DNA of 63,193 bases from Thermoanaerobaculia bacterium (lineage in GTDB: Bacteria; Acidobacteriota; Thermoanaerobaculia; Gp7-AA8), in NCBI GenBank assembly GCA_036399695.1, contig DASWMP010000008.1, positions 1 to 63,193 on the forward strand, given 5' to 3'. The position numbers and the translations under genes were made by a program. Positions 81 through 59,302 of the stretch are shown here, one piece after another (position 1 is the first letter of the stretch; each line of letters opens with the position of its first letter). A model generated the notes under the pieces. That model ran no database searches. It had not been told where the DNA came from and was given only the letters and a program-made list of their open reading frames with translations.

Positions 81-3000
81 CTACACCAGCAGCTTCAGCG
101 CTCGAACCGCTTCGGTGGTGTCGAGCGTGTCGTCGCCGATGGCGTTGATGATGTCTTCGATGGACTTCATGTTCGGGTCGAGGGCGAATTCGGTCTCGAG
201 GCGCTGCTCGAGGGCCGACTCGGTGATCCAGTAGCGGTCGCGGGCGAATGGGTAGGTGGGCAGTGGAATGCGTCGCGGCTTGGCGCCGGCGTAGAGGCGC
301 GTCCAGTCGACCGGCTGGCCTTTGACCCACAGCTCGAGGAGCTTCGGGTTGTCGATGACTTCCTGGAGTCCGCCACCGCGGCGGTCTTGACCCGGCTCCA
401 CGCGTCCGCGATACAGACCGTCGATCTCTGTCGCACCGGCATCAAAAGCCGCCAGCTTCCCGGCCAGCTCCTCGGCCGTGCCGACGATGAAGCCGGCGCG
501 TTCTTCCATCGCGTCCCGCCCGATCTGCAGCGTCCAGGCGACGGCTGCGAGATCGACCGGCTGTTCGGCGCCGAGCAGGAGCTCGCGGAGATCGCGTGCG
601 CGCTGGCGCAACTGCTCGGCCGTCCGTGCCGACAGCGGAATGATGAATGAAGCATCGCCCCCGGTCGTCGCGGCTCGCGCCGCCGGGCGATGCTCCTCGA
701 TGACGAGATGCGCGTTGGTGCCGCTGAAGCCGAAGGAGCTGACGGCCGCGCGACGCAGCGAATCGGGCGCGACGTCCCACGGCTTCGTCTCCCGGCTGAT
801 GTAGAAGGGGGAGTTGCCAAAGTCGAAGCGTGAGTTTTCCGACTTTACGTTGAGCGTCGGCACCAGCGTCCGGTGACGCATCGACAGCAGCACCTTCTGC
901 AGGCCGGCAACGCCGGCGGCGGCGGTGGTGTGGCCGATGTTGCTCTTCACCGAGCCGATGGCGCAGAAGTTCTTCCTGGCCGTCTTCTCTTTGAACACCG
1001 TGGCCAGCGCTTCGAGCTCGATCGGGTCGCCGAGCCTCGTGCCGGTGCCGTGGGCCTCGACGTACGTGATGGTGTCGGGATCGATCTCGTGCTTCGCGTA
1101 GAGCTCCCGTTCGAGCTCGATCTGGCTGCTGATGCTGGGCGCGGTGATACCGTTGGTCTTGCCGTCCTGATTGATGCCGGACGCGAGGATGACGCCGTAG
1201 ATGTGGTCCCCGTCGGCCTCCGCGTCTTTGAGGCGCTTGAGCACGAGCGCACCGACGCCTTCGCCGTTCACGATGCCATCCGCCCCGTCGTCGAACGTCT
1301 TGCACTGGCCGGTGGCCGAGAACATCCCCGCCGCGCTCATGGAGACGTACGCCTCCGGGCTGAGCCAGAGACTGACGCCGCCAACAAGGGCCATGTCGAT
1401 CTCACCGCGGGCGAAAGCCTGGCTGGCCAGATGAATGGCCACGAGCGAGGCCGAGCAGGCCGTGTCGACGGAGAGCGCCGGCCCCTTCAGGTTGAGGTAG
1501 TAGGCGATGCGCGCGGCGGCAATGGCGAAGCTGTTACTCGTGACCGGCGCCGAGAGCACGCCATGCTGCAGCAGGAGCGACGTGTAGTCGTTGGTGGAGA
1601 TGCCGAGATAGACACCACACCGTTTGTTGCTGAGCGTCGTGCTGCAGTAGCCGGCGTCTTCGAACGCGCGATAGCTCTCCTGCAGGAACAGCCGGTGCTG
1701 CGGGTCCATGTACTCCGCTTCCTGCGGAGAGATCCGGAAGAAGCGGGCATCGAAGCAATCGACGTCGTCGATCGCCCCCATCCACTTCGAGTACGTCTTC
1801 TCGGCGCGGGTGCGATCCGCGTCGTAGTACCGCTGCATGTCCCAACGGCTTTCCGGCACCTCGGTGATGGCGTTCTTCCCCGCGGCGAGGTTCTCCCAAT
1901 ACTGCTTCAACCCCTCGGCCTTCGGGTAGCGGCCGGACATGCCGACGATGGCGATCCTGTCGTCCGCTGCTGCAGGCGCTGACGAAGACTTGCGAATGCG
2001 CAACCTCTTCGCCGTGCGCGGCTGCGCACTCACGAGCGGCTGAGCGCTGACCACCGGCGCGGCGGCCTCCATGCGCTCAGATACCGCCGGTTCAGGAGCG
2101 GGCGCCGGCATCTTCGCGAGCTCCTGCTCGAGGAACAGCGAGAGCTCGCGAATGGTCGGGTAGTCGTACAGGCGGATGTGCGACAGCTCGGTGCCATACT
2201 TTTTGTTGATGGAGACGACCAGCTCCGCGCCGAGGAACGAGTCGAGGCCGAGATCGACGAGAGGCTGGTCGGCGTCGATTACGGAGGGCTCGATGCGCAG
2301 CACGGTGCCGAGCAGCACTTTCAGTTGCTGCTGCAGCTCCGCGAGAGTGACGGCTGGTGTTGCCGCCGCCGCGCGTTGCGCGGGAGCGGCGGGTGCCGTG
2401 GATGCGGCGGGGGCGAAGATGCGCGCGTTGCGCAGGAAAGCGGCGATCTTCGCCTTCGAACCTTCGGCGATGAGCGTCTGGTCGTGAGGCAGGGCGAGGC
2501 TGCGATAGAACGTCTGCAGGCCGGTGGTGGTCCGCATCGGTTCGATGCCGGTGGTCTGGCGCACCAGCTCCTGGCTCGCGATGTCGAGCTTCATTCCGCC
2601 CGCCTGCCACAACGGCCAGTCGATCGAGCGGGTGCGTCCGTAGCGCTCGCCGGCCGTCACCTGACGATTGCGATACGCGGCGAACTGGTCGAGGAAACCG
2701 TTGGCAGTGGCGTAGTCGGCCTGCCCGGGGTTGCCGAGTGCGCCGGCGATGGAGGAGAAGAGAACGAAGAAGTCGAGCTTCAGGTGGCGTATAGCCGCGT
2801 CGAGGTTGAGTGCGCCCGCGACTTTCGGCGCGAGGACGGCACGAAACTCGGCGCCCGTCTTCTTCACGATCATGTTGTCGGCGAGCATCCCGGCAACGTG
2901 CAGGATGCCGTCGAGGCGGCCGTGCTCCGCGACGAGGAAGGCGATGAGCTGCTGGACTTTGTGATCGTCGCTGAGCTCGACCTGGCGGTAGCTGACCTGC

Positions 3001-6000
3001 CCGGCGTTGGAGGACCAGCCGTCGATGACGGCCTGCTTTTCCGCGCTCCATGCTGAGCGGCCGGTCAACACGATTCGCGCGTTGCGCGTCTGTTCGAGGA
3101 TCTCTTTCGCGAAGAGCGTCCCCAGGGCGCCGAAGCCACCGGTGATCAGGTAGACGCCGCCGTCTTTGAAGGCGACCGGCGGCTGGGCGGCGTCGGCGGC
3201 GAGCTCCTGCCAGCGCAGCACTTCGCGGGTGTCGTTTCCATAGCGGATCACCGGCTCGATCGTCCGCGACTTCTCCCCGTCCAGCCGCCCCGCCAATTCC
3301 GCGGTCGTGGTCTGCGGCGGGACGATCATGAGCTGTCCGGTGAACTGCGGGCTTTCCAGTGCGGCCGTCTTCAACAGCGCGGAGAGGCCAGCGAAGAGTG
3401 CCCCGTCGTGCTCCCCCGACACGACGACGTGCATCAGCACGCGCCCTGCGGGCTTGCGGCTCAGGATGGCCTGCACGTACTCGAAGATTGCGACGGCGTG
3501 GTCGGTGCAACGGGCGGCGACGCTCTGGTGCTCCGCGGCGAGCAGTGACAGGCAATGGCTGTCCGGCAGCAGCGTCTGCAACGTCTCGCTGTCGACGTTC
3601 GGCAGCTCGCAGGAGACGACGTGGTGCTCCCGGTATTCCATGCCGCTCGTCGTGGAGATGGCGACGTCACCCGTCACCCACGCCGGCGCGGCGAACACGC
3701 TCTCAACTTGCGGTGCCGTCGTAGCGGCGGTACCGCGGGCGCGGTGCGCCACGGCCGAAGCCAGCCCCTTCCGCCGCAGCGACGGGTGCAGTCGTGCCGT
3801 GGTCGTGCCGCGAGGGCCACCCTGCTTCGCGGCGGGCGCCTCGATCCAGTAGCGCTCCTTCGCAAACGGGTAGACCGGGAGGCTGATGCGTCGCGGCTTC
3901 GGCTCGTCGTACAGCCGGTTCCACTGGAGCTCGAGCCCTTTCACCCAGAGCTCGAGGAGCTTCGGCAGCTTCTGCTGCGCGAGCAGCCGGTCGACGAGCG
4001 TCTCCTTCATCTCCTCGTCGAGACCGAGCGCGCTCAGGCTGTCGCGGTTGCGCTTCACCTGTCCCTGGTAAACGTCGTCGATGCGCTGCTCGCCATCGGC
4101 GAATGCCTGCAGCTTTGCAGTGAGCTCCTCGATCGTGCTCACGACGAAGCCGGCGCGCTCGTCCATCGGCGACCGGCCGGCCTGCAGCGTGTAGGCGATG
4201 TCGCGCAGCTCGCGTGAGGGCTCTGAGCGGATGAAAGCGATGAGATCGAGCGCCTTCTGCTTCAGTTGTTCGGTGGTCCTGGCGGACAGCGGCACGATGG
4301 TCGTGGCATTCGGCGGGACAGCCGGGAGCGGATGCGCTTCGACGGCCGGCCGGTACTCACCGATGACCATGTGCACGTTCGTCCCGCTGAAGCCGAAGGA
4401 GCTGATGGCCGCCTGACGTTTTCCGTTATCGGCTGCTTTCCACTCCTGCAGGCGCTCGTTGACGAAGAAGGGGCTGTTCGTCAGGTCGATGTGCTCATTG
4501 AGCCGCTCGAAGTTGATGGTCGGCGGCAACTGGCGGTGCTTCAGCGCGAGGATGAGCTTCATGACGCCGGCGATTCCGGCGGCCGTGAGACAGTGGCCGA
4601 TGTTGCTCTTGATCGACCCGAGGGCGCAGTAGGCGTTCTTCTGGGTGTATTTGCCGAAAGCGTTTTTCAGTCCTTCCACCTCGATCGGGTCGCCGAGCTT
4701 CGTGCCGGTGCCGTGCGCCTCGATGAGCTGGATGGCGTTCGGGTCGATGCCGAAGTGGTCGTACACCTCCTGCTCGAGCCGCGTCTGCGCTTCCGCGTTC
4801 GGCGCCGTGATGCCGTTGCTGCGGCCATCCTGGTTGACGCCCCATCCTTCGATGACGCCGTAGATGATGTCGCCGTCGCGCTCGGCGTCGGCCAGGCGCT
4901 TCAGCATCACCACGCCCACACCTTCACCCGGCACGAACCCGTCGGCGCGCTGGTCGAACGTGAAGCACTTGCCTTCGGGCGACAGCATGCCGGCCTGCGC
5001 CGTCTTGATGTGCATCTCCGGCCCGGCCATCACACAGACGCCGCCGGCCAGGGCGAGATCGCTGCCCCCTGAGCTCAACGTGTCGCAGGCCTGGGCGATG
5101 GCCACGAGCGACGACGAGCAGGCCGTATCGATCGCCACGCTGGCGCCCTGCAGGTTCAGGAAGTAGGAGATGCGCGCCGCGAGGATCGACATCGCGCCGC
5201 CGGTGAAGCCCTGCGCGCTCAGTTGGTGCTGGCGGGACAACTGGTGGTAGTCCGTGGCGGCGCAGCCAACGAAGACGCCGCACCGGCTGCCCGACAGCAC
5301 GCGGCTGTCGTACCCGGCGTTCTCGATGGTGTGCCAGCACGCCTGCAGAAAGAGCCTCTGCTGCGGATCCATGCTCTCCGCTTCGGTCGGCGAGATGTTG
5401 AAGAAGAGCGGGTCGAACAGATCGACACCATCGAGCGCCCCGAGCCATTGGCTGTTCGTCTTCCCCGGCACGGCGTCGCCCGGTTGATAGAAGGCGTTCA
5501 GGTCCCACCGGTTCGCCGGGACGGGGGCGATACAGTTCCGGCCGTCGGCGATGTTCTGCCAGAACTCGTCGAGGTTCTTCGCCTGCGGGAACTGCCCGGC
5601 CATGCCGATGACGGCGATTGGCTGCGCGGCCGCGGGTGCGGGCGCGGCGACCGGCTCCACGCGTGTGGCCGCGCGGCGGCGGCGACGCGTCGTGGCGGCG
5701 GCGGCAGGCCGCGGCTTCGCAATCGCGAGTTGCGGGGACGTGCGGCTCACCGGCCCGGCTGGCCTCTCCACGGCCGGGGCTTCGTCGATCGGAGCGGCGG
5801 CGACGCGTGAGAGCGTCCCGTGCTTCTCGGCTTCCTCCCGGACGTGGCGGCTGAGCTGAGTGAGCGTCGGGAAGCTGTAGACCTTCGTCGCTTCGATCGA
5901 GGTCTCGTATTTCTCGTTGATCTTGCGGATCCAGGTGACGCCGCTGATGGAGTCCAGGCCCAGGTCGACGAACTGGGCGTTCTCGTCGATGTCGCTCTCG

Positions 6001-9000
6001 CGCATCTGCAGCTCGTTCGCGAGCAGCGTCCTGAGGCCGGCCGTGACCGTGCGCAGGACGTCGCCGTCGCTGGTGCGAGGTGCGGCCGCGGGTTGCGGCG
6101 GTGCGGGGCGCGGCGGTGCGATGACGGGCGCAGGCTCGGCCTCTTCGTGGAAGTTGCTTTCGATCTGCGCGAGCGTGGCGGCCTGGCCGACGAACGTCTG
6201 TTCGTGCATGGCCACTTCGAGCCGGTACGTTTCCTCGATCGACTCACGGACGCCGGCCGTCAACTGCTGCTTGAGGGCCACGAGCCGTGGCCTGGAAGCG
6301 CGCGCGATCTGCCGGGCCAGGGTCATCGCCGCCGGCGACACGACCTCCGCGCGAGGGAGGATGGGCAACCGCAAACCACGCGCTTTCAGGTCGCTGCCGG
6401 TGTAGTAACGGGCGGTGAACAGGCTCTCTCTGGCCAGGTCCGCCCCCATCTTCGCGGCGAGGATCGCGGTGGCTCCGGCGCCGGGGGTGAAGCCGTAATC
6501 CATGTAGGGGCTGACGTAGCGGCTCTCGTCGCTCAGCAGCACCACGTCGGCGAACATGCCCAGCGTCCAGCCGGCGCCGATGCCGTGTCCCTGCATCGCC
6601 GCGATGACCGGCACCTTGCAGACGAACGGCAACTGGAAGATCTTGAGGTCGGTGAACTTGGCCTTCCCCTGCTGGATGGCCAGGAGGCCGTCTTTGGTGC
6701 CGCCGGACGCAAAGTAGCTGTCGTAGCCGGTGAGGACGACCACCTTGCAGGCGGGCGTGCTCTCGATGCGGGCGAAGACTTCGTTGAGCCCGTCGATGAA
6801 GGCGTCGGAGAACATGTTCTTCGCCTGACGGTCCTCCATCTTCACCACGATGATGCCCTCTTCGTCGACCGTGGCGGTGACGACGTTCGAGCGCAGCACA
6901 ATCGGGCCGGCCGAGGGTGCGGGCTGCTCGGCGGGTTGCTCGACGGGAGCGGGCGTGCTCGCGTCATGTGTCGCGTGACTGACAGGATTGTCCGTCCTCC
7001 ACTCCTGGCCGACGATGGTGGCGGCGGTGTGCTGTTTCCACGCGGCCAGCGTCGTCCGCGGCCATTGCGTCCAGCGCTCGGCAATGGCGATCGCGGCCGG
7101 CAGCACCTGGGGGCGCTCGACGGCTGTCACCGTGCCGGTGCGTTGCGCGAGGACGGCACCGGAGTAGCTCGAGGCGATCAGCAGCAGCTCGCTCGCGGCC
7201 TGGTTCCCGAAGCGGCGGGCGAAGAGCGGCACCGCTGCCGGCAGTGCGTTCGCCGACGAGTAGGAGCCGGTGCGGCTGTAGACGGCCGCCTCGCAGAATT
7301 GAGCCACCAACCAGCCGTTGCCGCTCGCGTTGTCGCTGAGTGCGGCCACGATCGGAACCGGTGAGTCGGCGAGCAGCCGCTGAACGTCGGCCAGCACATC
7401 GCCGGAGACCGGCGGCAGAAATTCAGGATGGCGGCTGGACAGCACGATCGCTTTGCAGGACGCGTCCTGATTCACTTCGGCGAAGACGCCCCTGAGATCG
7501 GCGAGCAGCTCGCGGGCGCTGGCATCGGCGGCCAGCTTCAGGACGAGCACACCGTTGGCCGGCGGGACGAGCTCGACGAAGGTGGTCGCGGTGAGCGCTG
7601 CGATTTCGGATTTCGGATTTGCGATGTCCGGGTTGGTCTGCGGCGCGATGGGCGCAAGGGCGTTGACGTACACCGCGAGCCGTCGCGTCAGGTGCTCCTT
7701 GAGCAGACGGAGCGCATCCCGCGACTTCGACACCAGCGACGCGGCCAGTTGCTCCCCATGCGACTTCACTTCCGCTCCAGCGACGATCGGGAACGTCCAG
7801 CCTTTGGCCCGCAGTTGCTTCGCCGTGGAGGGGCCGGCGACGTACAGCAGGTCGTGTGCATGCGGCTCGCCGAAGCGCTCGGCGAACAGCAGCGCCTCCG
7901 CCGTCGTGGGCAGGAGGCCACTGTCCACATGGGTGAACCCGCACGCCGCCTCCTCGCTGCACACCATGAAGTCGCAGAGCGCCGCGGCCATGAAGGCGGC
8001 GCCGGCGGCATCGCCTTCGAGGACCGCGATGATGGGATACGCGAACGACGCGAGGGCGCGATACAGCCCCTGCTCGATGGCGGAGTTGTAGTCGTCCCTG
8101 CTGCCGGACGTGAAGGCGCGGTCGAGACCTTCGAGCGTCAGGACCTTCAGCGCCGGCTCCGGCTGCACGCGCGCCAGCGCCTGCAGCAGTTGGGGAACGG
8201 CGTCGCTGGATGCGTTGACGCGGATGGTGAATCTGCCGTTGCCCTCGTCGAACAGCCGCACCGAATCGGCGTCCGGTCCGCCCTTGCGGATCGGGAGCGA
8301 CGGCGTCGACAGGGCGATTGGTGCGCGCGCTGCGACGCGCTGCGCACCGACGGCGCCGGGTGCTGCCAGCAAAATCGCGGCGCGCTTCTTCCGCTCCGCC
8401 GGGATGACGGGTTGCTGCTGCGTGGCCAGCACGATCTCCTTGCGTGTCAGAGGCATAACGACCGCGGCCGCGGCCTTGGCTGCAGTCACGACCGGTGCCG
8501 CAACCTCGAACCGGGCCGCCTGCATCGTGACGCCGCGCAGTTGCACCGCGACGTTACCTTGCGGATCGCAGACGTCGATGTCCACGGCGGCGTCGCTCGT
8601 GGAGCGCACCCAGGCCACCATCTCGCTGCTGCACGGCGCCAGGATGCGCAACGTCTCCAGCGCAACCACGGCCGGGCCGCCGAACAGCCGCCCCGCCGCC
8701 TGCAGCGCACCCTCGATCACCGCCGGGTGCAGGACGTAGTCGCTGGTGGTAGCGGCGATGTTCTGCGGGAGTGCGAGCTTCGCCAGAAGCTGGCCGTCAC
8801 CGCCGCCGCCGAGCTGCGCCAGATCGAGCCTCGAGGGCGGCGCTTCGTAGCTCAGCACTCCACGGCCGTGGCAATGCACGGTGTCGCCGCTGTAAATCTC
8901 GTAGTCGATCTCGTCCCGATCGTTCGCAACCAGGGCGATGCTGACAGGCTGGTTCCCGGTCACGACGACCGGCTCCGACCAGACGTGCTCCCGCAGTTCC

Positions 9001-12000
9001 AGCATCGCCGACGCACACCACGCCGGGAACGCGTCAGCGATCGCCGCCCGCGCCATCTCCAGATACGCGGCGGAGGCAAGCCGTCTCGCACCGTGAGATC
9101 CCTCGAGGAAGAGCTCCTCCCCCGTGAAGGTCGAGCTGTAGCGCTGCTCGTTCAGATCGGACGTGTTGCTGTGCACCAGCGGATGCACGAACCCGCTCGC
9201 AACCTGTGTGGCCGCCACCTCACGAACAGCAGGCAGCTCCAGCCAGCAGCGTTCCTTCGCGAACGGATACACCGGCAGGCTCACGCGCGACGGCCTGGTC
9301 TCGCCGTAAAGCTTCGTCCAGTCCAGCTCCAGCCCTTTGACCCAGAGGTCGAGCAGCTTGCTGAACTTCCGATTGGCGATCCACTTGTCGACGGTCTGCT
9401 GCAGATCGGTGTCGGTACTGAAGGCGGACAGCGACTCGTTTTTCCGTTTCGCCTGCCCCTGATAAGCGCCGTCGATCCCCTGCTCGCCGGCCACATACGC
9501 GCGCAGCTTCTCGACCAGCTCTTCGGGCGAGCTCACGACGAAGCCGAGACGCTCGTCCATCGCTTCGCGGCCGGCCTGGAGCGTGTACGCCGTGGCCACG
9601 AGGTCGAGAGTGCTCAGGCGCGGGCGGACGAAGTCCAGCAGGTCCTGCGCTTTCTGTAGCAGTTGCTCGGGCGTCCTCGCCGAGAGCAGGATGGCCACGT
9701 TGCCACCCGCGGCCGGCTGGGCGGCCGGCGCCGCATACTCCTCGATGAGCAGGTGGGCGTTCGAGCCGCCGGCGCCGAACGACGAGAGGCCGGCGATGCG
9801 CGGCAACTGACGGCCGTCGATGACCGGCGGCTCCCACGACCTCAGCTCCTGATTGACGACGAAGGGGGTGCTCTCGAACTCGATGTGCGGGTTCAACTGC
9901 GCCGAGTGGAGCGACGGCACGAGCTGCCGGTGCTGCATCTGCAGCAGGATCTTGGTGAGGCCCGCGATGCCCGCGGCCGATTCGCAGTGGCCGATGTTCG
10001 ACTTGGCAGAGCCGATGAGGCAGAAGCCGGTGTCCTTCGTGTAGTGCTGGAAGGCGCGGGTGAGCGCGGCGATCTCGATCGGGTCGCCGAGCTTCGTCCC
10101 GGTGCCGTGCGCTTCGATGTAGCTGACGTGCCGGGCGTCGGTCTTCGATTCCGCCAGGGCCCGGCCGATGGCGCTGGCCTGCGCCTGCGGGTTCGGGACG
10201 GTGTAGCCGTTCGTCTTGCCGCCGTGATTGAGGGCGCTGCCGCGGATCACGCCGTAGATGTGGTCGCCGTCGCGCTTCGCGTCGGACAGCCGCTTGAGCA
10301 CGACCACGCCGACGCCCTCGCCCGGGATGTAGCCGTCGCCCCCTTCGCCGAAGCTCTGGCAGTGGCCGTCGCTGGAGATGAACTGCCCCGCGCTCAGCAC
10401 GAGGTACTTGTTCGGATGGATGCTGACGTTGACGCCGCCCGCGAGCGCGAGGCTGGTGCGCCCGAGCTTCAGGTCCTGACAGGCTACGTGGATCGCCGTC
10501 AGCGACGAGGAGCACATGGTGTCGAGCGTCATGCTCGGGCCGTGCAGGTTCAGCGCGTACGACACGCGGTTGGCGATGCTCGCCGCGCTTCCGGCCACTC
10601 CGATCCTCGTCCCGAGCGCGCTGGCCTCGGCTCCGAACAACTGATACTCGCTGTACATCACGCCGGCGTACACGCCGACCTGACCGGCGAGGTCGTCGTT
10701 CTGCGGCACCTGAAGGGTGGCACGGGTGTAACCGGCGTCTTCGATGGCCATCCAGGCGTGCTGCAGGAAGAGCCGCTCCTGCGGATCGATCTGCTTCGCT
10801 TCCTTCGGCGAGATGTTGAAGAAGAGCGCGTCGAACTCGTCGACACCGGCGATGAAGCCGCCCCACTTACTGTAGTGATGGCCCCCTTCCGTGCGGTCCT
10901 CACTAAAGTAGGCGCGCCAGTCCCAGCGCGACTTCGGGACTTCGGTGATGCAGTCCCTGCCGTCGCGGAGGTTGTTCCAGTAGGCCGCGAGATCGACGGC
11001 CTCCGGATAGCGGCCGCTCAGGCCGATGATGGCGATGGGCTCATCGTGAGAGGCGGCGGCTTGCGCCGGGCGCCTGACGGCGGAGCGGCCGTGCCGGCGG
11101 GGCAGCCGCTCGATGGGACCGATAGGACCGATGGGACCAATGGGACTAATGGGACTGATGGGGCTCTGCTCTTTGGCGGCAGGTGCTGCCACCAGCGCCG
11201 AGAGGCGCGCGGCGTGGGCCTGCGCAAAGTAGCGCGTCAGCTCGGCCATCGTGCGGTACTCGAAGAACAGCGTCTTCGGAAGTGAGCCGAACGTCTGTTC
11301 CAACTGGGTCGTGAGCTTGAGCGCGAGGATCGAGTCGATGCCGTACTTTTCCCACGGGGCCTCGGGGTCGATGCGATGGGCCGGTACCTTCAGCAGCCCG
11401 GCCAGTTCCTTGCGCAGGTACTCCTGCGTCTTCTCCGCGAGGCCATCGGCTGAGACAGCGACGGCCGATGCCGGCGTTGCGGCTTCGACCGGACGCTCGG
11501 CGCTCCCGAAGAGGAACGCACGCAGCCGCGCCGTATCTCCTTCGGCGACGAGCACCTGGTCGTGCGCCAGCGCCAGGCTGTGATGGAACGCCTGCAGTCC
11601 GGTGGCGGACTGCATCGGCTGTACGCCCATCGTGCGCTCCAGCACTTCCTGCGTGGCCGCGTCGATGCGCATCCCGCCGGCCTGCCAGAGCGGCCAGTTG
11701 ATCGAGCGCGTGCGGCCGTGGCGTTCGCCCGCCGCCACCTGCCGGTTGCGATGGGCGGCGAAGTGATCGAGGAAGGCGTTCGCTGCCGCGTAGTCGGCCT
11801 GCCCGACGTTGCCGATGGCACCGGCGAACGAGGAGAAGAGGACGAAGAAGTCGAGCTGAAGGTGGCGGCTGGCGTGGTCGAGATGGCAGGTACCGGTGAC
11901 TTTCGGGCCGAGGACTTCGGCGAATTCGCCGGCGGACTTTCTGAGGATGAAGTTGTCGGCGACGCGGCCGGCGCAGTGCAGGATGCCGTCGAGGCTCCCG

Positions 12001-15000
12001 TGCTCGCCGATGATCATGTCGACGAGCTGCTCGACCTGACGGAGCTCGCCCAGATCCACGCGGCGGTAGCTCGCGCGCCTCTTGTTCGCGCCGAGCGCAT
12101 CGAGGAGCGCCTGCTTCTGCGGTGTGAGCGGGGAGCGCCCGGTCAGCACGACGCGCGAGCCGGCGGTGCGCTCGAGGATCTCTTTGGCGAAGACGAGGCC
12201 CAGCGCGCCGAGGCCGCCGGTGATGAGATAGACGCCCCGATCTTTGAACGCTGCCGCGGCTGCCGGTGAGGACGGAATCTCTTCCCAGCGCAGCACCTGC
12301 CGCCGTCCGCCGTCGTAGCGCACCACCGCGTCGGTGGCCGTCGTCTTCTCCGCTTCCAGCCAGCGCGCCAGATCCTCGGTAGACGTCTGCATGGGAGCGA
12401 GGAGGAGCTGACCGGTGAGGTTCGGATTCTCCAGGGCCGCCGTCTTCAGCAAACCGGAGAGGCCGGCGAAGACCGCCTGCTCCCCGTCGGCCGGTACGAC
12501 GATCTGCACGAGGACGCGGCCCTGCGGCTTCGCCTCCAGGATCGTGCGGATCTGCTCGAAGGAGCCGAGCGCGTACGCGGAGTAGCGCTCCGCCAGCCCA
12601 TCCGCGCCGCGCGCGTGCAGCGCGACGCACTCGGTGGTTAGCAGCAGGGCGGAAAGATCATCAATGTCCACGGCCGCCAGCTCACAAAGCGCCACTTGGT
12701 GAGCGGTGAACGGGGAACCCATAGGACCTGTGGGCTCAAGGGCTATCCCATGTGTCCCATTGGTCTCATCTGTCCCATCGTGCCTCGCATCCCTCCACGC
12801 CGGTACCGCCAGTATGGCGCCCGCCGCACTCGTAACCACCGCGCCGGCGCTCAGCTTGCGCGACGAGAGTCCCCGCATCTGCACGCAGACGTTCCCGCTC
12901 GCGTCGCACAGATCGAGATCGAACTTCACGACGTGATCGGCGGCGTGACTGCCGGCCGCGTAGCGGACCCACGCCACCATCTCGGTGGTGCAAGGCGCGA
13001 CGATCCGCAGCGTCTCCAGCGCGAACGGCAGGCGCGGCTCCCCTGCATCGCCGGCCAGCAGCCCGACGCACGACTGCATCCCGCTGTCCATGAGCGACGG
13101 ATGCAGGACGTACTCGCTCGCAATCTGTCCGGCAATCTCCGGCAGCCGTAGTTGCGCCAGCAATTGCCCGCTGCCGCGATGAATGTCCGTGACTCCGCGG
13201 AACGACGGTCCGTACAGGAGCCCCATCTGTCGCCAGGCCGCGTACAACCCGCCGGGCTCGAGGTGCGACGCCCCCATCTCCCGCCGGAGCTGCTCGATGT
13301 CGAGTCTCGCGGTTGCCGGTTCGCGGCTCAGGACCGCGCGGCCCTGGCAGTGCACGACCTCCGCGTCCCCCTCTCCGCTGTAGACCTCGAAGACGATCCG
13401 GTCCTGCTCGTCGGTCGCCAGAGCGATGCTGACCTGCCGCGCACCGTCGACGACGATCGGCTGCACCCAGACCACGTCCTGCAGCTCCAGCACGACACCG
13501 TCGGCACGCTTCGGCAGGGCCTGCTCGATGGCCGCCCGCGCCATCTCCAGGTAGGCCACGCCCGGCAGCACCTTACGCGCCGCCTCGCCGCTCGCCTGCA
13601 CCTGGTGATCGGCGAGGAAGAACTCGTCACCGGTGAACGTCGACCCATAGCGCTGCTCGCTGAGATCGGAGATGTTGCTGTGCAGCAGCGGGTGGATGAC
13701 GGCCGTGGCCTTACCGGCCGCCAGCGTGCGCTGCGCGGTGGGCTCGATCCAGTAACGCTCCTTCGCGAACGGATAGAGCGGCAGGAGGATCCGCCGCGGC
13801 CTGGCCTCGCCGTAGAACGCGTTCCAATCGAGCTCGATCCCGTTGACCCAGAGCTCCAGCAGCTTCGCCAGCTTCTTCTCGGCGCGCCATTTCTCGATGA
13901 CCGACTGCTGCAGGTCGGTGTCCTGGCTGATGATGCCGAGCGTCGCCTTCGTCCGCTTGCCTTCTCCGCGGAAGGCATCGGCGATCGGCTGTACGCCGTC
14001 GGCGTAAGCCTGCAGCTTCTCCGCGAGCTCGTCGATCGAGCTGACGACGAAGCCGAGACGCTCCTCCATCGGTTCCCGTCCAGCCTGGAGCGTGTACGCG
14101 AGCTCCGCGAGATCGAGCGACGCGGTCTCGCGGCGAACGAACGCCAACAGATCCAGCACCTTCTGCTTCAGTTGCTCGGCCGTGCGTGCCGACAACGGCA
14201 CGATCGTCTTCGCACCCGGCACCGCCGTCGCGGTCCGCCGCGCCACACCCGGTGGCGGCACGTACTCGCCGATGACGAGATGCACGTTCGTGCCGCTGAA
14301 GCCGAACGAGCTGATGGCCGACCGCCGCTTCTGTCCCGGCGCGGGCGTCCAGTCCTGCAGGCGGCCGTTGACGTAGAAGGGGCTGCCCGTCAGGTCGATG
14401 TGCTCGTTGACGCGCTCGAAGTTGACCGTCGGCGGAAGCTGTTTGTGCCGCAGCGCGAGGATCAGCTTCTGCACGCCGGCGATGCCGGCCGCGGTGAGGC
14501 AGTGACCAATGTTGCTCTTCACCGAGCCGAGGGCGCAGTACTGCTGCTCCTGGGTGTACTTGGCGAAGGCGTTCTTCAGCCCTTCCACTTCGATCGGGTC
14601 GCCCAGCTTCGTGCCGGTGCCGTGCGCCTCGATGAGCTGGATGCCGGCCGGATCGATGCCGTAGCGGTCGTAGACGTCCTGCTGGAGGCGCGTCTGCGAC
14701 TCAGGATTCGGCGCCGTGATGCCGTTGGTCTTGCCATCCTGATTGATGCCCCACCCTTCGATGACGGCGTGGATGATGTCGCCGTCGCGCTGGGCGTCGG
14801 CCAGCCGCTTGAGCAGCACGACGCCGACGCCTTCGCCCATGACGAAGCCGTTGGCGCGCTGATCGAACGTGTAGCACTGGCCGTCCGCCGAGAGCATCCC
14901 CGCCTGCGCCGTCTTGATGTGCATCTCCGGCCCGGCCATGACGTACACGCCGCCGGCCAGGGCGAGATCGCTGGCGCCCGAAAGCAGGCTGTCGCAGGCG

Positions 15001-18000
15001 TCGGCAATCGCCACCAGCGACGACGAACAGGCCGTGTCGATGGAGACGCAGGGGCCGCGCAGGTTCAGAAAGTAGGAAATGCGCGCCGCCAAGATCGACG
15101 TGGCATCCCCAGTGAACCCCTCGGCGCTGAGTTGCTGCGTCCGCGACAGCAGGTGGTAGTCGCCGAACGCGCAGCCGACGAACACACCGCACTTGCTGCC
15201 CGACAGCGACCGCGCGTCGTACCCGGCGCTTTCGATGCTGTGCCAGCAGGCCTGCAGAAACAGCCGCTGCTGCGGGTCGATGCTTTCCGCTTCCCTCGGC
15301 GAGATGTTGAAGAAGAGCGGGTCGAACCGGTCGTACTCCTCGAGCGCGCCGAGCCACCGGCTGTACGTCTTCCCGGCCACGGCGCCGCCCGGCTGGTAAT
15401 ACGCATCGAGGTCCCACCGCTCCGGCGATACCGGCGTGATGCAGTTGCGCCCGTCGGCGATGTTCTGCCAGAACTCCTCGAGGTTCTTCGCCCGCGGGAA
15501 CTGGCCGGCCAGGCCGATGACGGCGATCGGCTCGGCCGTCCGCGCGGCCGCCTGAGCCTTGCCGAAGCGGGACGCCGTGCCGCTGCGCCAGGAGGTGAGC
15601 TTCTGCGATGTGGCCGCGATCGGCGGCGTGGCCACGCCGGCACCCGGACGTGCGATCTCGAGCTTCGGCGCGGGCGCCACCACCGGCGCGGCGGCGGCAG
15701 GCGCCGCCTGCTCGCGCACGAGCGTCCCCTGCTTCTCCGCTTCCCCTTCGACGTAGCGGGCGAACTGGCTCAGCGTCGGGTAGCTGTAGATGCGCGTCGC
15801 TTCGATCGACGTGCGGTATTTCTCGTTGATTTTCCGGACCCAGGCCACGCCACCGATGGAATCGAGCCCCAGATCGATGAACTGGGTGTTGTCATCGATG
15901 TCGCTCTCCCGCATCTGCAGCTCGTTGGCGAGGAGCGTTCTGACTGTGGCGGAGACGTCCGTCTGTCCGGCTTGATGTGGGACAGACACTCCTGCCTGTC
16001 CTGCGTTCCCCTCATGTAGGACAGGCACTCCTGCCTGTCCCCCGTCGCCATGGACACCGTCACGATGGACAGGCAAGAGTGCCTGTCCTGCAACATCCTG
16101 CGCGGCGAAGTTCGTCTCGATCTGCGCCAGCGTTGCGGCCTTGCCGACGAACGTCTGCTCGTGCATGGCCAGCTCGCGGCGATACGTCTCCGCGAGCGGC
16201 TGCTGCATCGCGTCGCGGAACTGTTGCTTGAGGGCGATCAGATGGTGGCGCGGAGCGCGGGCAATCTTCCGGGCCAGAGCCAGCGCCGCGGGGACGACCT
16301 GATTGCGGGAGACGACCGGCAGCCGCACGCCTCTGGCGCGCAGCTCTCCGCCGGTGTATTGCTGCGCCGTCAGCAGGCTCTCTCGTGCGATGTCCTCGCC
16401 GAGCTTGTCGCCGATGATCCAGGTCGCGCCGGCGCCGGGCGTGAAACCGTAGTCCATGTAGGGGCTGACGTAGCGGCTCTCCTCGCTCAGCACGATGGCG
16501 TCGGCGAACATGCCCAGCGCCCAGCCGGCGCCGATGCCATGTCCCTGCATCGCGGCGATGACCGGGAGCGCACAGTCGAGCGGGAACTGGAACACCTTGA
16601 CGTCGGTGAAGCGCGCTTTGCCTTCGTGGATCGCCAGCAGCGTCTCTTTCGTCCCACCGGAGGCAAAGTAGCTGTCGAAGCCGGTCAGGATCACGACCTT
16701 GCAGGCCGGCATCCGCTCGATGTTCGCGAACGCCTCCTGCATCCCCTCCACCAGTGCTTCGGAGAACATGTTCTTCGCGACCCGGTCCTCCATCGTCACG
16801 ACGACGATGCCGTCCGGGTGCGCGGTGGCCGTGACGACGCTCGACTGCAGCGGGATGGGTGTGGCGGTCTTGACGTCCGCCGCTTCGAGCTCGGAGTCCG
16901 GCGGCGCAGGCGCCGCGCTGCTATCCATGTCGAAGAGCGGCTGCTGCGCCACCACACTCCGGGAGAGCGCAGCCGCAAGCTCCACGGCCGTCGAAAGCAC
17001 CTGGTCGTCGCCGGCCACGATCGCGCTGCCGGCGCGCTGTTGCAGCTCGGCACCGGAGTAGGCATCGCCGGTGAGCAGAAACTCACGGCCGGCATCGCTG
17101 CCGAAGCGGTGCGTGAACGCGGCGGCAGCAGCCGGAGCGAGGCCGGCGGCGGAGTATGTGCCGCTGCTGCTGTAGACCGTTGCGTGGCACAACTGGCCGA
17201 GGAGCCAGGCGTTCCCGCTGGCGTCCCCGTCGAAGGCGGCGACGACGGCAGACCGCGACGCCGCGAGCAGCGGCTGCAGCTCGAGGACGGCGCCGTACGA
17301 CAGGTCCGCGGGGATGCTGGCCAGAACGACGGCCCGGCCGTCGCCCTGCTGCTGCATCGCCGTCAGGAGGTCGCGGAGGCCCGGCACCACGTCCTTCGCC
17401 TGCACATCCGCGTCGAACCTGATGACCACGACGCCGTCGCCGCGCTCGGCGACGCGGATGTACGGCGACGGTGACGTCAGCGGCTGGGCAACCACGGCCG
17501 GCGCGGGCAGCGTCGCCTCGACGGCGCGCAAGGCGGCGACCGGAACGGCAACGTTGCGCGTCAGGTGCTGCTTCAGCAGGCGCAGAGCCTCGCGCGACTT
17601 CGTCGTCAGCGTCGCGGCCAGTTGCCGGGCGTACGTCTCGACGTCCGCCCGCGGCAGGACCGGGCAGGTCCACCCGCGGGCCTGCAACTCGCGTCCGGTC
17701 AGCGTCCGGGAGACGTACAGCAGGTCCTGCGCGCGCACGTGGCCGAAGCGGGCACTGAACAGCGCCAGCTCGGCCGCCGCGGGATGGAGCGCTTCCTGCG
17801 CATCGGTGAAGGCGTAGGCCGCCTCTTCGCTGCACACCATCAGACCGCACAGCGCGGCGGTCAGGAAGGAGGCGCCGAGCGTATCGCCGTGCAGGACGGC
17901 GATAACCGGGTACGGGAAGGACGCAAGGTCGCCGTAGAGACCCTGCGCGACGGCTTCGTCGTGGGTCTCGCGTCCGCGCGGCAGCGCCTGCTCCAGGCCG

Positions 18001-21000
18001 GCGATCAGCAGGACCTTCGTCGACGGATCGTCCTGCACCTTCGCCAGCGCCTGCTTCAACTGGGCGATGACGGTGCGCGGGCTGGACGACGGCTCGAGGC
18101 GGATCGAGAAGAGGCCCTGGCCGTCGTCGAACAGCCGGACGGCCGGCGCGACCGCGGCGGCCACGCGGAGCGCGGCATTGACCAGCGTGATGGGCGCGCG
18201 TCCGGCGGACGGTGCGGGCACGCTAGCGCCCGGAGTCGCCAGAGAGATCGAGGGACGTTTCTTTCGCTCCGGCGCCACGGAGACAGCTTCGACCGGCGGC
18301 AGGAACGTCACTTCCGTGCGAGCGGGCGTGGCGGTGGCGCGGGCCGGTAACGGCGCCGCGGCCGGAGCTGTGGGCTCCTCGACCGCCATGACCGGACTCG
18401 CGCCATGCTGCAGGACCGCGCGTCCCTGGCAGTGGACCGTCTCCCGCTCCCCTTCGCGGCTGTAGATCTCGAAACCGATCTCCTCTTCGTCGCGCGGCAG
18501 CAGGGCGATGCAGACTTCGATGGCGGGCGTGACGGCGACCGGCTCGCCCCAGGCCACGTCGTGCAGTTCCAGATGCGTATCGTCCGGAATCGTGGCCGCC
18601 CGCTCGATCGCGGCGCGGGCCATCTCCAGGCAGGCTTCCGGCGGAAGGAGGGTCTGCCCGTTGGCGCTGGTGCGGAGGAACGATTCGTCGCCGCTGAACG
18701 TCGAGCTGTAGCTCTGCTGCCGCAGGTCGGAGGTGTTGCGGTGCAGCAGCGGGTGGAGCACCGCGGCCGTGGCCTGCTTCGCCGGAGCCGGCGCGACGGG
18801 CGGCGGCAGCTCGATCCAGTAACGGTCGCGGGCGAAGGGGTAGACCGGCAGGCTGACGCGGCGCGGCGTGACGCCGCCGTACAGCTTCTTCCAGTCGACG
18901 TCGAGGCCTTTCACCCAGACGTCGACGAGCTTCGCGAGCTTGCGCGAGGCGATCCAGCGGTCGATGGTCTGCTGCAGGTCGGCGTCGTTGCTGAAGACCG
19001 ACAGCGCTTCCCGGTTGCGCTTTACCTGTCCTTCGTAGACGTCCTCGAGACCCTGCCGGCCGCTCACGTACGCCTGCAGCTTCTCGGCGAGCTGGCCGGC
19101 CGAGGTGACGACGAAGGCCAGCCGCTCGTCCATCGCTTCCCGGCCGGTCTGCAGCGTCCAGGCCGTGGCGGCCAGGTCGAGCGTGTCGATGCGCGGGCGG
19201 AGGTACGCGAGCAGGTCGGCCGCTTTCTGCCGCAGTTGCTCCGGCGTCCTCGCGGAAAGGACGACCACCGCTTCCGGCAGCGCGACCGTACGCGCCGCCG
19301 GAACCTGGTACTCCTCGACGATCAGGTGCGCGTTCGCGCCCCCGGCGCCGAATGAGGAAATGCCGGCGATGCGGGGCTGCGTCTGCCCGTCGATCACCGG
19401 CTGCGCCCAGGGCCGCACCTGCTGGTTGACGACGAACGGCGTCGCCGCAAAGTCGATGTGCGGATTCAGCTCCGCCGAATGGAGCGACGGCACCAGCTCC
19501 TGATGCTCCATCTGCAGCAGGACCTTCGTCAGGCCGGCGATGCCGGCGGCCGACTCGCAGTGGCCGATGTTCGACTTGGCCGAGCCGATCGGGCAGAAGC
19601 CGGCCTCCTTCGTGTACTGGCTGAAGGCCTTGGTCAGCGCGGCGATCTCGATCGGGTCGCCCAGCTTCGTCCCGGTGCCGTGCGCTTCGATGTAGCTGAC
19701 GTGGCGCGCGTCGGTCTTCGATTCCGAGAGTGCGCGGGCGATGGCGCTGGCCTGCGCCTGCGGATTCGGCACCGTGTAGCCGTTGGTCTTGCCGCCGTGA
19801 TTGAGGGCGCTGCCGCGGATGACGCCGTAGATGTGATCGCCGTCCCGCTCCGCCTCGGAGAGCCGCTTCAGCACGACCACCCCGACGCCCTCGCCCGGGA
19901 TGTAGCCGTCGCCGCCTTCGCCGAAGCTCTGGCAGTGGCCGTCGCTGGAGATGAACTGGCCGGCGCTCAGCATCAGGTACTTGTTCGGATGAATGCTGAC
20001 GTTGACGCCGCCGGCGATCGCCAGGCTGGTGCGCCCCTGTTTCAGGTCCTGACAGGCGATGTGGATGGCCGTCAGCGACGAGGAGCACATCGTGTCGAGC
20101 GCCATGCTCGGGCCGTGCAGGTTCAGCGCGTACGAAACACGGTTGGCGATGCTGGCGGCGCTGCTGCCGATGCCGAGACGGTTGCCATTCGTGCTGGCGT
20201 CGAGCCCGAGCAACTGGTACTCGGTGTACATCACGCCGACGTACACGCCGGCCTGGCCGGGCAGATCGCCGGCATGCGGTACCTGCAGCCCCGCGCGCGT
20301 GTAGCCCGCGTCCTCGATGGCCATCCAGGCGTGCTGCAGGAACAGCCGCTCCTGCGGATCGATGTGCTTCGCCTCTTTGGGGGAGATGTTGAAGAAGAGC
20401 GGGTCGAATTCGTCGACCCCGGCGATGAAGCCGCCCCACTTGCTGTAGTGGTAGCCGGGCTGGGTCCGGTCCTCGTTGTAGTAGGTGCGCCAGTCCCACC
20501 GTTCTTTCGGGACTTCGATGATGCAGTCCTTGCCGTCGCGCAGGTTCTGCCAGTAGGCCTGGAGGTCCACCGCCTCCGGGTAGCGGCCGCTCAAGCCGAT
20601 GATGGCGATGGGCTCATCCTGCGGCGCCGGCGCTTGCGCCGCCGGCGTGGCCGGATTGTCCGTGCGGCGGCGGGCGGAGCGGCGGTTCTCCCGGGAGGGG
20701 AAAACGATGGGACCGATGGGACCAATGGGACCTATGGGTTTTTCATTGGTCCCACCGGTCTTCGCGGCAAACAGCGTCTCCAGCCGCGCGGAGTGCGCCT
20801 GCGCAAAATACCGCGCCAGCTCGCTCAGCGTCTGGTACTCGAAGAAGAGCGTCTTCGAGAGCGCGCCGAACGTGAGCTCCAGGTGGCCCGTGAGCTTCAT
20901 CGCCAGGATCGAGTCGATGCCGTAGGTCTCCAGCGCGGCCTCGGGGTCGATGCGGTGGTACGGGAGCTTCAGCAGCTCCGCGGACTGGCGGCGGAGATAC

Positions 21001-40075: not shown

Positions 40076-40138
40076 TCCTGTCTGTCCGCCCTGGACGCGG
40101 GCGGTGATAGACGGACAGACAAGAGTGTCTGTCCTACA
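40038..40138. repeat. family-2 palindromic element (77-bp unit plus an extra half-arm) in the MATE/GMC intergenic region
   Basis: TGTAGGACAGACACTC (40062-40077) and GAGTGTCTGTCCTACA (40123-40138) are perfect 16-nt inverted repeats. The internal arms CTGTCTGTCC and GGACAGACAA also pair. An extra GAGTGTCTGT lies at 40038-40047. Confidence 0.85.

Positions 40139-41572: not shown

Positions 41573-59302
<17,730 letters not shown>

What the first reader, a model, noticed from the sequence alone, without database searches (positions are those of the whole stretch)
15958..16092. A second palindromic element family translated as part of the ECH2-ACP linker of the PKS
Seen directly: a 78-bp copy (16015-16092) is bounded by TGTAGGACAGGCACTC and GAGTGCCTGTCCTGCA, with a partial copy just upstream (15979-16003). 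It is nearly identical in design to the intergenic element at 40062-40138. 78 bp is exactly 26 codons, and the frame stays open (..GQAGVPVLHEGNAGQAGVSVPHQAGQ..). The paralogous linker in the duplicated module (around 6050-6150) lacks it and is a plain Pro/Ala-rich spacer. Inference from this: the insertion post-dates the duplication.
Basis: partly seen in the sequence, partly recalled or inferred. Interest (0 to 1): 0.62.

Follow-up and report, generated by a model that had tools for sequence, protein, structure and literature searches.

The report
REP repeats translated in PKS linker
Three copies of a small mobile hairpin repeat (a REP element, the kind moved by a RAYT transposase) sit in frame in the flexible spacer between two domains of a giant polyketide synthase gene and are probably read as protein. 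This kind of event is already known, seen here in a soil acidobacterium where about thirty other sites inside genes carry the same inserts.

Summary
Window 15976-16092 holds three 26-nt REP units, each a GT(G/A)G-type head plus a 22-nt palindrome GGACAGRCA-N4-TGYCTGTCC. Two of them form the 78-bp inverted doublet. All lie in frame in the 7462-aa trans-AT PKS ORF, exactly between the ECH2 and ACP domains.

The family has 412 exact units in this 6.4-Mb genome (686 with up to 3 mismatches, in 444 clusters). A REP-associated tyrosine transposase gene is flanked by the same units here and in two related genomes. This is therefore a classical REP/RAYT system, in a Thermoanaerobaculia-like acidobacterium from a biocrust metagenome.

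The paralogous linker, both linkers of the nearest orthologue and about 35 homologous linkers are Pro/Ala-rich and lack the repeat, so the insertion reading holds. Two refinements:
- The mobile module is the 26-nt unit, not the 78-bp piece. The spacers of the two window copies are unrelated.
- The cluster has replaced almost the whole variable linker rather than being added to it.

Genome-wide, 32 clusters lie in frame in genes (CarB, ArgH, Ppc, NRPS A domains). Fifteen of them are in giant ORFs, and the cysteine-free frame GQT(L/G)(L/V)SV is strongly preferred. Intragenic GTAG-REPs are already described (PMC3733652), so this is a new member of a known kind.

The parts
81..22469 (-). Host gene: a 7462-aa trans-AT polyketide synthase. 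It has KS, KR, DH, ECH and ACP domains, RhiE-like KS linkers and no AT domain.
   Evidence: ORF list; Pfam on both halves; the nearest homologues are 7.2-7.5-kaa PKSs of Acidobacteriota/Thermoanaerobaculia MAGs.
16146..16814 (-). ECH2 (enoyl-CoA hydratase/isomerase, PF00378) domain, aa 1886-2108, immediately upstream of the linker in the protein.
15750..15947 (-). ACP (PP-binding, PF00550), aa 2175-2240, with the LGLDSIGG serine motif intact.
16067..16092 (-). REP unit 3: head TGCA (a GTAG head with one change) plus the palindrome GGACAGGCACTCTTGCCTGTCC. It is read in the sense of the head strand as AGQALLPVH.
16041..16066 (.). Unique 26-nt spacer of the doublet, read as RDGVHGDG. It contains a 15-nt tandem duplication (16042-16056 / 16057-16071, 87% identical) that overlaps the edge of unit 3.
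   Evidence: family D2. The spacer is unrelated to those of other doublets.
16015..16040 (+). REP unit 2: head TGTA plus GGACAGGCACTCCTGCCTGTCC. It is read antisense as GQAGVPVLH and pairs with unit 3 in a helix of about 23 bp.
15976..16001 (+). REP unit 1: head TGTG plus GGACAGACACTCCTGCCTGTCC, in direct orientation to unit 2. It is read antisense as GQAGVSVPH.
15961..15968 (.). Possible vestigial half-unit (GTCTGTCC), read as part of AGQTD. It abuts the conserved D-V-x-A-T lead-in of the ACP.
   Evidence: inverted repeat I8; comparison of linkers. Weak evidence.
6036..6149 (-). Paralogous ECH2-ACP linker (HEEAEPAPVIAPPRPAPPQPAAAPRTSDGDVLRT) without any REP.
   Evidence: The RNA fold z-score here is -0.12, against -6.17 for the REP linker.
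40062..40138 (+). Intergenic doublet of the same REP family (heads TGTA/TACA outside, 25-nt spacer), 10 nt downstream of the stop of ORF 40148..41473(-).

Best explanation
The segment is a cluster of three REP (repetitive extragenic palindrome) units, plus perhaps a remnant of a fourth. They belong to a GT(G/A)G-tagged REP family that is spread through this acidobacterial genome by a REP-associated tyrosine transposase (RAYT, IS200/IS605-type HUH enzyme).

The units landed in, or were duplicated within, the sequence-unconstrained spacer between the ECH2 and ACP domains of a trans-AT PKS. The result is a multiple of three, free of stop codons, and falls in the mildest reading frame (Gly-Gln-Ala/Thr-Gly/Leu-Val/Leu-Pro/Ser-Val, no Cys). 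The gene therefore stays intact and the repeats are translated as a Gly/Gln/Ala/Val/Pro/His-rich tether of about 44 residues, which now stands in for the ancestral Pro/Ala-rich linker. The insert is best seen as a tolerated, nearly neutral passenger.

Shown: the repeat family, its RAYT association, the in-frame position between the domains, absence from paralogue, orthologue and homologues, and the genome-wide frame bias.

Inferred: mobilisation by the RAYT, translation, neutrality, and loss of the old linker by later deletion.
For: - Family size: 412 exact and 686 near-exact units in 444 clusters. 218 of 242 neighbouring pairs are inverted.
- One-sided head: GTGG about 400 times, GTAG about 115 times.
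- RAYT: the gene at C268:8324-8842 is flanked by the units on both sides. It scores 92 bits on NCBIfam NF047646 'REP-associated tyrosine transposase' (cut-off 80), and its best PDB match is 4ER8, E. coli TnpA-REP, with the HUH and Tyr motifs aligned.
- REP-flanked RAYTs also occur in the same-genus genome G001 and in G022.
- The host frame is open, and the cluster lies between ECH aa 1886-2108 and ACP aa 2175-2240.
- No REP-like peptide occurs in the paralogous linker, the two G020 linkers or about 35 homologous linkers of 28-48 aa.
- The same family lies in frame at 31 other places. Eight host proteins were checked by Pfam: CarB, ArgH, Ppc, an M28-PDZ-PD40 peptidase, an LTA4H-like peptidase, an AAA-ATPase-domain protein and two NRPS adenylation-domain segments.
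- 35 of 53 in-frame units use the Cys-free frame (p = 1e-6), as expected if they are translated and filtered by selection.
- The codons of the PKS units are still REP-like and the stems are perfect, so the insert is evolutionarily young.
- No terminator-like site lies on the coding strand.
Against: - No RNA or protein data exist, and no RNA run holds the locus. Translation is therefore inferred.
- No close orthologue with an empty site exists; the next homologue is 56% identical in this region. The exact insertion boundaries, the target site and the order of events cannot be reconstructed.
- The doublet's spacer is unique, so it is not shown that the 78-bp piece ever moved as one unit.
- The mRNA would form a perfect helix of about 23 bp (-85.5 kcal/mol, z = -6.2). 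That could have effects, so neutrality is not proven.
- The genome is a fragmented MAG (411 contigs). The only assembly check uses the same sample.
Confidence: 0.85

Rival explanations
1. The REP cluster marks a recombination or deletion joint. Recombination between REP copies (or slippage between the direct units 1 and 2) removed the native linker, or joined an ECH2 and an ACP-KS segment of different origin. On this reading the repeat is a scar of module rearrangement rather than a simple insertion.
For: - The ancestral 28-48-aa variable linker is almost entirely missing rather than split by the insert.
- Units 1 and 2 are direct repeats 39 nt apart, and the spacer holds a 15-nt tandem duplication.
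- REP copies lie in several other megasynthase genes and could serve as homologous sites.
Against: - Both flanks are about equally similar to the paralogue and to G020 (ECH 0.61-0.66, ACP 0.69-0.76), and the domain order is that of all homologues.
- No partner site or reciprocal product was found.
- Most megasynthase REPs sit in loops of A domains, not at module borders.
Confidence: 0.08
2. The insert has been co-opted. Either the very stable mRNA hairpin pauses ribosomes or shields the 22-kb transcript at a domain border, or the REP-coded peptide is a selected linker.
For: - The fold is -85.5 kcal/mol with z = -6.2, against z = -0.1 for the paralogous linker.
- The stems of units 2 and 3 are perfect, and the G-C stem variant is enriched among in-frame units (9/53 against 21/633, p = 2e-4).
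- In CarB of the same-genus genome the REP-like peptide QTGVSVP is kept with only synonymous differences.
Against: - Homologous PKSs work without it, and the linker is highly variable in sequence and length.
- In-frame copies sit in unrelated proteins and positions, including inside domains.
- The G-C variant is also the normal REP of a related genome, so it need not have arisen in place.
- Intact stems are equally explained by a young age.
Confidence: 0.05
3. The feature is an assembly artefact: a short-read assembler joined two contigs through a shared repeat, or collapsed or expanded repeats at this spot.
For: 144 of 444 REP clusters lie at contig ends, so the family does disturb the assembly. 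Word depth rises to 74-381x inside the repeat because of the other copies.
Against: - A second assembler's contig (3807 nt, depth 7.2 on both sides) spans 15784-16600 without a difference.
- The flanks are collinear with ECH2-linker-ACP in all homologues, and the frame is kept.
- The G-C unit variants here are rare in the genome, so they are unlikely to be borrowed from other copies.
Confidence: 0.02

Closest known systems
GTAG-tagged REPs / REPINs mobilised by RAYTs (E. coli, Pseudomonas, Stenotrophomonas, Opitutus terrae; PMC3733652, PMC3116915; TnpA-REP structure 4ER8)
   Same: - A 22-nt palindrome with a one-sided GT(A/G)G tetranucleotide.
- Hundreds of copies, mostly outside genes and mostly in inverted pairs.
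- A RAYT gene flanked by the repeats.
- The GTGG head variant is reported for O. terrae GTAG-20.
- PMC3733652 already lists REPs lying wholly inside ORFs (single units, dimers and clusters coding 20-82 aa) and suggests they sit in flexible linkers or loops.
   Different: - The host phylum: in that 2013 survey GTAG REPs were not listed for Acidobacteria, only TIR-flanked RAYT relatives.
- The host gene is a PKS inter-domain linker, whereas the published cases are mostly DNA replication and repair genes.
- Here the cluster replaces nearly the whole linker.
- About 10% of clusters away from contig ends are in frame in genes, and nearly half of those are in giant megasynthase ORFs.
Rickettsia palindromic elements (RPE-1 to RPE-8; Ogata et al. 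2000, 2002, as cited in PMC3733652)
   Same: Selfish palindromic repeats inserted in frame in genes that stay functional, adding a peptide segment at tolerant positions. Only some reading frames are used.
   Different: RPEs are 100-150 bp or CGTC-tagged units with unrelated sequences. They occur in an obligate intracellular alphaproteobacterium, and no RAYT is associated with them.
Other hairpin repeats noted earlier in this same genome (in frame in Lhr helicase; a 143-bp hairpin in an NRPS C domain at window 55408-55550)
   Same: Same genome and same outcome: a hairpin repeat read as a floppy loop or linker.
   Different: Those are different repeat families (tandem-unit arms, or a 143-bp hairpin) for which no RAYT link has been shown. 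The present family is a canonical REP with its own RAYT. These earlier notes are unchecked AI notes and I did not retest them.

Membership tests
REP / REPIN-RAYT system | Short (20-40 nt) imperfect palindrome able to form a stem-loop | tested here: met
   The 22-nt unit has a 9-bp stem and a 4-nt loop. The stems of units 2 and 3 are 100% complementary.
REP / REPIN-RAYT system | Conserved tetranucleotide GTAG (or a close variant) at one end only | tested here: met
   The head is TGTGGG at 197+208 unit ends and TGTAGG at 56+59 unit ends, always on the side defined by the CTCC/CTCT loop. The PKS units carry GTGG, GTAG and GCAG.
REP / REPIN-RAYT system | High copy number, predominantly extragenic | tested here: met
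   There are 412 exact and 686 near-exact units. Of 300 clusters away from contig ends, 32 are in frame in ORFs and the rest are non-coding or at gene borders.
REP / REPIN-RAYT system | Units paired in inverted orientation (REPIN doublets) with conserved composite forms | tested here: met
   218 of 242 adjacent pairs are inverted. Conserved composite types have 16-, 46-, 51- and 56-nt spacers.
REP / REPIN-RAYT system | The particular 78-bp doublet in the PKS is itself one mobile REPIN | tested here: inconclusive
   Its 26-nt spacer matches no other doublet. The intergenic window copy has an unrelated 25-nt spacer.
REP / REPIN-RAYT system | A RAYT (HUH/Y1 transposase of the REP-associated clade) flanked by the same REPs | tested here: met
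   C268:8324-8842 has units 61-194 nt upstream and directly downstream of the gene, the first of these overlapping its last codons. It scores 92.1 bits on NF047646 (cut-off 80) and matches PDB 4ER8. The same arrangement is seen in G001 and G022.
REP / REPIN-RAYT system | Cleavage and mobilisation of the REP by the RAYT | not testable with these tools
   This needs a biochemical assay or a population-level insertion polymorphism.
Rickettsia palindromic elements | In-frame insertion in ORFs that remain open | tested here: met
Rickettsia palindromic elements | RPE consensus sequences / CGTC tag | tested here: not met
   The head is GT(G/A)G and the sequence is unrelated (family description in PMC3733652).
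MITE (IS-derived miniature inverted-repeat element) | Terminal inverted repeats of a parent IS plus target-site duplication | not tested
   No parent IS with these ends was seen. The only associated transposase is the RAYT, which has no TIRs. Target-site duplications were not examined because no empty site is available.
trans-AT PKS beta-branching ECH2-ACP junction (host context) | ECH domain followed by ACP in a KS-rich, AT-less megasynthase | tested here: met
   Pfam finds ECH_1, PP-binding, KS, KR, DH and RhiE-like linker domains and no acyltransferase domain.

The most novel reading that the evidence does not exclude
In these Acidobacteriota, REP units may be a regular raw material for protein linkers and loops, not just occasional passengers.

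- Insertions are filtered for one mild reading frame.
- They accumulate about six-fold in giant PKS/NRPS genes.
- They can replace native linkers, as in this ECH2-ACP junction.
- Some may become ordinary conserved coding sequence. In CarB a REP cluster sits at one loop in this genome, and a REP doublet sits at the same loop in another Thermoanaerobaculia MAG. In the sister species the peptide QTGVSVP differs from the REP only at synonymous sites.

Identical in-frame repeats at loops and linkers of different megasynthase genes could then also act as ready-made in-frame recombination sites for domain or module shuffling.
Probability: 0.12. Interest if true: 0.6.

Novelty: new member of a known kind. 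Interest (0 to 1): 0.3.

Why it matters
- For annotation: the odd GQAGV-rich stretch in this PKS is repeat-derived linker, not a new domain or motif, and the gene is probably intact.
- For natural-product engineering: it is a natural experiment showing that an ECH2-ACP tether tolerates complete replacement by an unrelated sequence of about 44 residues whose mRNA forms a very stable hairpin.
- For mobile-element biology: it extends canonical GTAG/GTGG REP-RAYT systems, and their in-frame insertion into genes, to soil Acidobacteriota. It also gives a genome with enough in-frame copies (32 clusters) to study which frames and positions selection allows.
- For metagenomics: it explains part of the fragmentation of this MAG, since a third of the clusters lie at contig ends.

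Tried and rejected
- A conserved functional peptide motif. Rejected: the same DNA occurs hundreds of times outside genes and in all six frames, and no homologous linker has it.
- The 78-bp piece as one discrete mobile element. Not supported: the spacers are unrelated.
- An intergenic gap between two PKS genes. Rejected: there is no stop codon, and homologues are continuous.
- An internal transcription terminator. None is predicted on the coding strand.
- A known RNA family. Rfam gives only far-sub-threshold miRNA-hairpin look-alikes (36 bits against a gathering score of 74).
- Transcript evidence. No RNA run holds the locus.
- A close orthologue with an empty site. The same-genus genome lacks this PKS, and the 5.8-billion-protein search gave nothing closer than 56% identity in this region.
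- Population heterogeneity. Only assembled contigs of the source run were available, so it could not be assessed.
- REPs placed specifically at module borders (the recombination-socket idea). Most megasynthase copies are in A-domain loops.
- One literature search was badly framed and returned nothing useful.
- Structure prediction of the didomain was not run, because no admissible deep alignment could be built.
Full report
**1. The observation**

The + strand of window 15976-16092 carries three copies of a 26-nt module. Each module is a four-base head (TGTG, TGTA or, inverted, TGCA) followed by the 22-nt palindrome GGACAGRCA-NNNN-TGYCTGTCC, which has a 9-bp stem and a 4-nt loop.
- Units 1 (15976-16001) and 2 (16015-16040) are direct repeats.
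- Unit 3 (16067-16092) is inverted.
- The short match GTCTGTCC at 15961-15968 may be the remnant of a fourth unit.
- A doublet with the same arms lies between genes at 40062-40138.
- Dinucleotide-preserving shuffles of the window give 0-0.1 matches, against 5-6 observed.

**2. Host gene and position**

The region lies inside ORF 81..22469 on the minus strand (7462 aa). This is a trans-AT PKS with KS, KR, DH, ECH and ACP domains, RhiE-like linkers and no AT domain.
- The repeats occupy about aa 2126-2169, between the ECH domain (aa 1886-2108) and the ACP (aa 2175-2240).
- The frame is open and reads ..NFAAQDV-AGQALLPVH-RDGVHGDG-GQAGVPVLH-EGNA-GQAGVSVPH-QAGQTD-VSATVRTLL...
- The ACP serine motif LGLDSIGG is intact.
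- A contig built by a different assembler from the source run (a biocrust metagenome) covers 15784-16600 with no difference and the same depth on both sides. This argues against an assembler-specific error. It is not independent data.

**3. What the repeat is**

- The whole genome (6.37 Mb, 411 contigs, 66% G+C) holds 412 exact units and 686 with up to three substitutions, grouped in 444 clusters.
- The relaxed count includes a sister family, GGACGGACAATCYTGTCCGTC, with a TGGA head.
- Units are polar: the head is always on the side defined by a CTCC or CTCT loop. It is GTGG about 400 times and GTAG about 115 times.
- 218 of 242 neighbouring pairs are inverted.
- Several composite forms have conserved spacers of 16, 46, 51 or 56 nt.
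- Of nine Y1-transposase (PF01797) matches in the genome, the one at C268:8324-8842 is flanked by these units on both sides.
- That protein passes the curated cut-off of NCBIfam NF047646, 'REP-associated tyrosine transposase' (92 bits against 80). Its best solved relative is E. coli TnpA-REP (4ER8), with the HUH (HVHLV) and catalytic Tyr (YVTQNPV) motifs aligned.
- A second RAYT at C120 is flanked by the sister family.
- In the same-genus genome G001 (41 units) and in G022 (117 units), a RAYT is again flanked by this REP. 33 of the 40 other relatives examined have none, and the other five have only 1-4 exact matches each.
- The exact unit is widespread in MAGs named Thermoanaerobaculia, Terriglobia, Acidiferrales, Pyrinomonadaceae and others, and sporadic in other phyla.

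All testable defining features of a REP/RAYT system are met. Mobilisation by the RAYT itself cannot be tested here.

**4. Insertion or conserved peptide?**

- The paralogous module of the same protein (48% identical overall, about 66% in ECH2 and 76% in the ACP) has the linker HEEAEPAPVIAPPRPAPPQPAAAPRTSDGDVLRT at nt 6036-6149.
- The nearest orthologue, an 8451-aa open frame in genome G020, which has no copy of this REP, has two ECH2-ACP junctions with ordinary Pro/Ala linkers.
- About 35 further ECH2-ACP linkers from homologous PKSs are 28-48 aa, variable, and rich in Pro, Ala and Glu. They end in a conserved D-x-L-x-x-V-T-A-T lead-in to the ACP. None contains a GQAGV-type peptide.
- The insertion reading is therefore supported.
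- New point: in the REP-bearing copy only about ten linker residues (AAQDV and DVSAT) are not repeat-derived. The native variable linker has been replaced, not simply split. The cause could be later deletion or events between the repeats.
- The spacer of the doublet contains a 15-nt tandem duplication, a sign of local slippage.

**5. Is it translated and tolerated?**

There are no RNA or protein data. The indirect evidence comes from the genome.

Using a codon-usage score trained on 1590 long ORFs, 32 of the 300 clusters away from contig ends have coding signal in the same frame on both sides and no stop codon. Pfam confirmed real domains on both sides in seven of the eight host proteins checked:
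- carbamoyl-phosphate synthase CarB, where a 50-aa REP cluster lies inside the oligomerisation domain;
- argininosuccinate lyase;
- PEP carboxylase;
- an M28-PDZ-PD40 peptidase, where the REP lies between PDZ and propeller;
- an LTA4H-like aminopeptidase, where it lies between domains;
- NRPS adenylation domains, where it lies in loops.

In the eighth, an AAA-ATPase-domain protein, Pfam matched only the part downstream of the insert.

With the GTGG head all six frames of a unit are stop-free. Even so, 35 of 53 in-frame units use the one frame per strand that gives GQT(L/G)(L/V)SV and avoids cysteine (p = 1e-6; 22 of 32 at cluster level, p = 5e-5). All three PKS units use it. Such a bias is what selection on a translated product would produce.

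Fifteen of the 32 clusters lie in ORFs of at least 1500 aa, which make up about 8% of coding DNA (p = 7e-9). Some of these are paralogous copies, for example three at the same A-domain loop. Long multidomain synthetases with many loops and linkers seem to be the most permissive hosts.

**6. RNA level**

- The coding strand of 15950-16105 folds to -85.5 kcal/mol (z = -6.2), with a near-perfect helix of about 23 bp between units 3 and 2, plus the hairpin of unit 1.
- The paralogous linker gives z = -0.1.
- There is no T-run and no terminator-like site on the coding strand.
- No Rfam family reaches its threshold.
- The PKS units keep REP-like codons (GGA, TTG, CCT) and perfect stems. In contrast, the CarB site in the sister genome differs from the REP at nearly every third codon position. 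The PKS insert therefore looks comparatively young.
- Units 2 and 3 carry the paired G...C stem variant. This variant is rare here (about 30 units), is enriched among in-frame copies (p = 2e-4), and is the standard form in G022. I read it as a subfamily, not as compensatory evolution in place.

**7. Comparison with what is known**

- Di Nocera et al. 2013 (PMC3733652) describe GTAG-tagged REPs and a GTGG-headed family in Opitutus terrae.
- They also describe REP dimers with conserved or variable spacers, and RAYTs flanked by REPs.
- They explicitly report REPs lying inside ORFs as singles, dimers or clusters coding 20-82 aa, and propose that these sit in flexible linkers or loops.
- They relate these to the Rickettsia palindromic elements.
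- The REPIN concept is from PMC3116915.
- The present case fits this description.
- What is new is modest: the phylum (Acidobacteria were listed there only for TIR-flanked RAYT relatives), the host (a PKS inter-domain tether that is almost wholly replaced), and the size and frame bias of the in-frame population.
- A full-text search found no paper that reports REPs in frame in PKS genes.
- Earlier AI notes on this genome report other hairpin families in frame in Lhr and in an NRPS C domain of this window. They agree in kind, but I did not retest them.

**8. Verdict**

- Observation: confirmed.
- Best explanation, confidence 0.85: a tolerated in-frame cluster of RAYT-type REP units serving as the ECH2-ACP linker.
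- Rivals: a recombination or deletion scar (0.08), a co-opted RNA or peptide function (0.05), an assembly artefact (0.02).
- Novelty: new member of a known kind.
- Interest: 0.3.

Noticed in passing
window 6969-7001 (unit 6976-6997): The paralogous module of the same PKS carries one in-frame unit of the sister REP family. Its reverse complement is gagTGGA-GGACGGACAATCCTGTCAGTCA-cgcgaca. This is nearly identical, flanks included, to the REP next to the second RAYT at C120. It sits in the ECH1-ECH2 linker and is read as ..GQEWRTDNPVSHATH..
   Followed up: partly
genome contig C63:6393-6540 (locus L020); G001 locus L021; L032:4349-4409: CarB has a 50-aa REP cluster inside its oligomerisation domain, and seven related genomes lack it there. 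The same-genus genome has QTGVSVP at that spot, differing from the REP almost only at third codon positions. Another Thermoanaerobaculia MAG has a REP doublet at the same CarB loop. This is either a recurrent target or an old, partly domesticated insert.
   Followed up: partly
whole genome (G000): 144 of the 444 REP clusters lie within 240 nt of a contig end. This repeat family is a main cause of the fragmentation of the assembly into 411 contigs.
   Followed up: no
genome contigs C266:19737-19812, C266:43441-43531, C374:616-691: Three NRPS adenylation domains carry a REP doublet at the same loop (..ELTAEKFV[..DRQECLSH..WDRHSCLS]..RLYRTGDL..) with near-identical flanks. The insert seems to have been copied along with module duplication.
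   Followed up: partly
genome contig C268:8324-8842: The RAYT reading frame runs into the downstream REP unit (C-terminus ..ERRTDKSVCPT), so the repeat supplies its last codons.
   Followed up: no
G001:C15:169679-170843: In the same-genus genome the RAYT is surrounded by REP units spaced about 119 nt apart in alternating orientation, forming a regular array.
   Followed up: no
loci L028-L107 (genome-contig scan): The exact 22-nt REP unit occurs in many Acidobacteriota MAGs of several classes. It is also found sporadically in Verrucomicrobia, Gemmataceae, Kiritimatiellia, Armatimonadetes and others.
   Followed up: no
window 16042-16071: There is a 15-nt tandem duplication (CCGTCGCCATGGACA / CCGTCACGATGGACA) inside the doublet's spacer, read as VHRDG-VHGDG. 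It suggests slippage after insertion.
   Followed up: no
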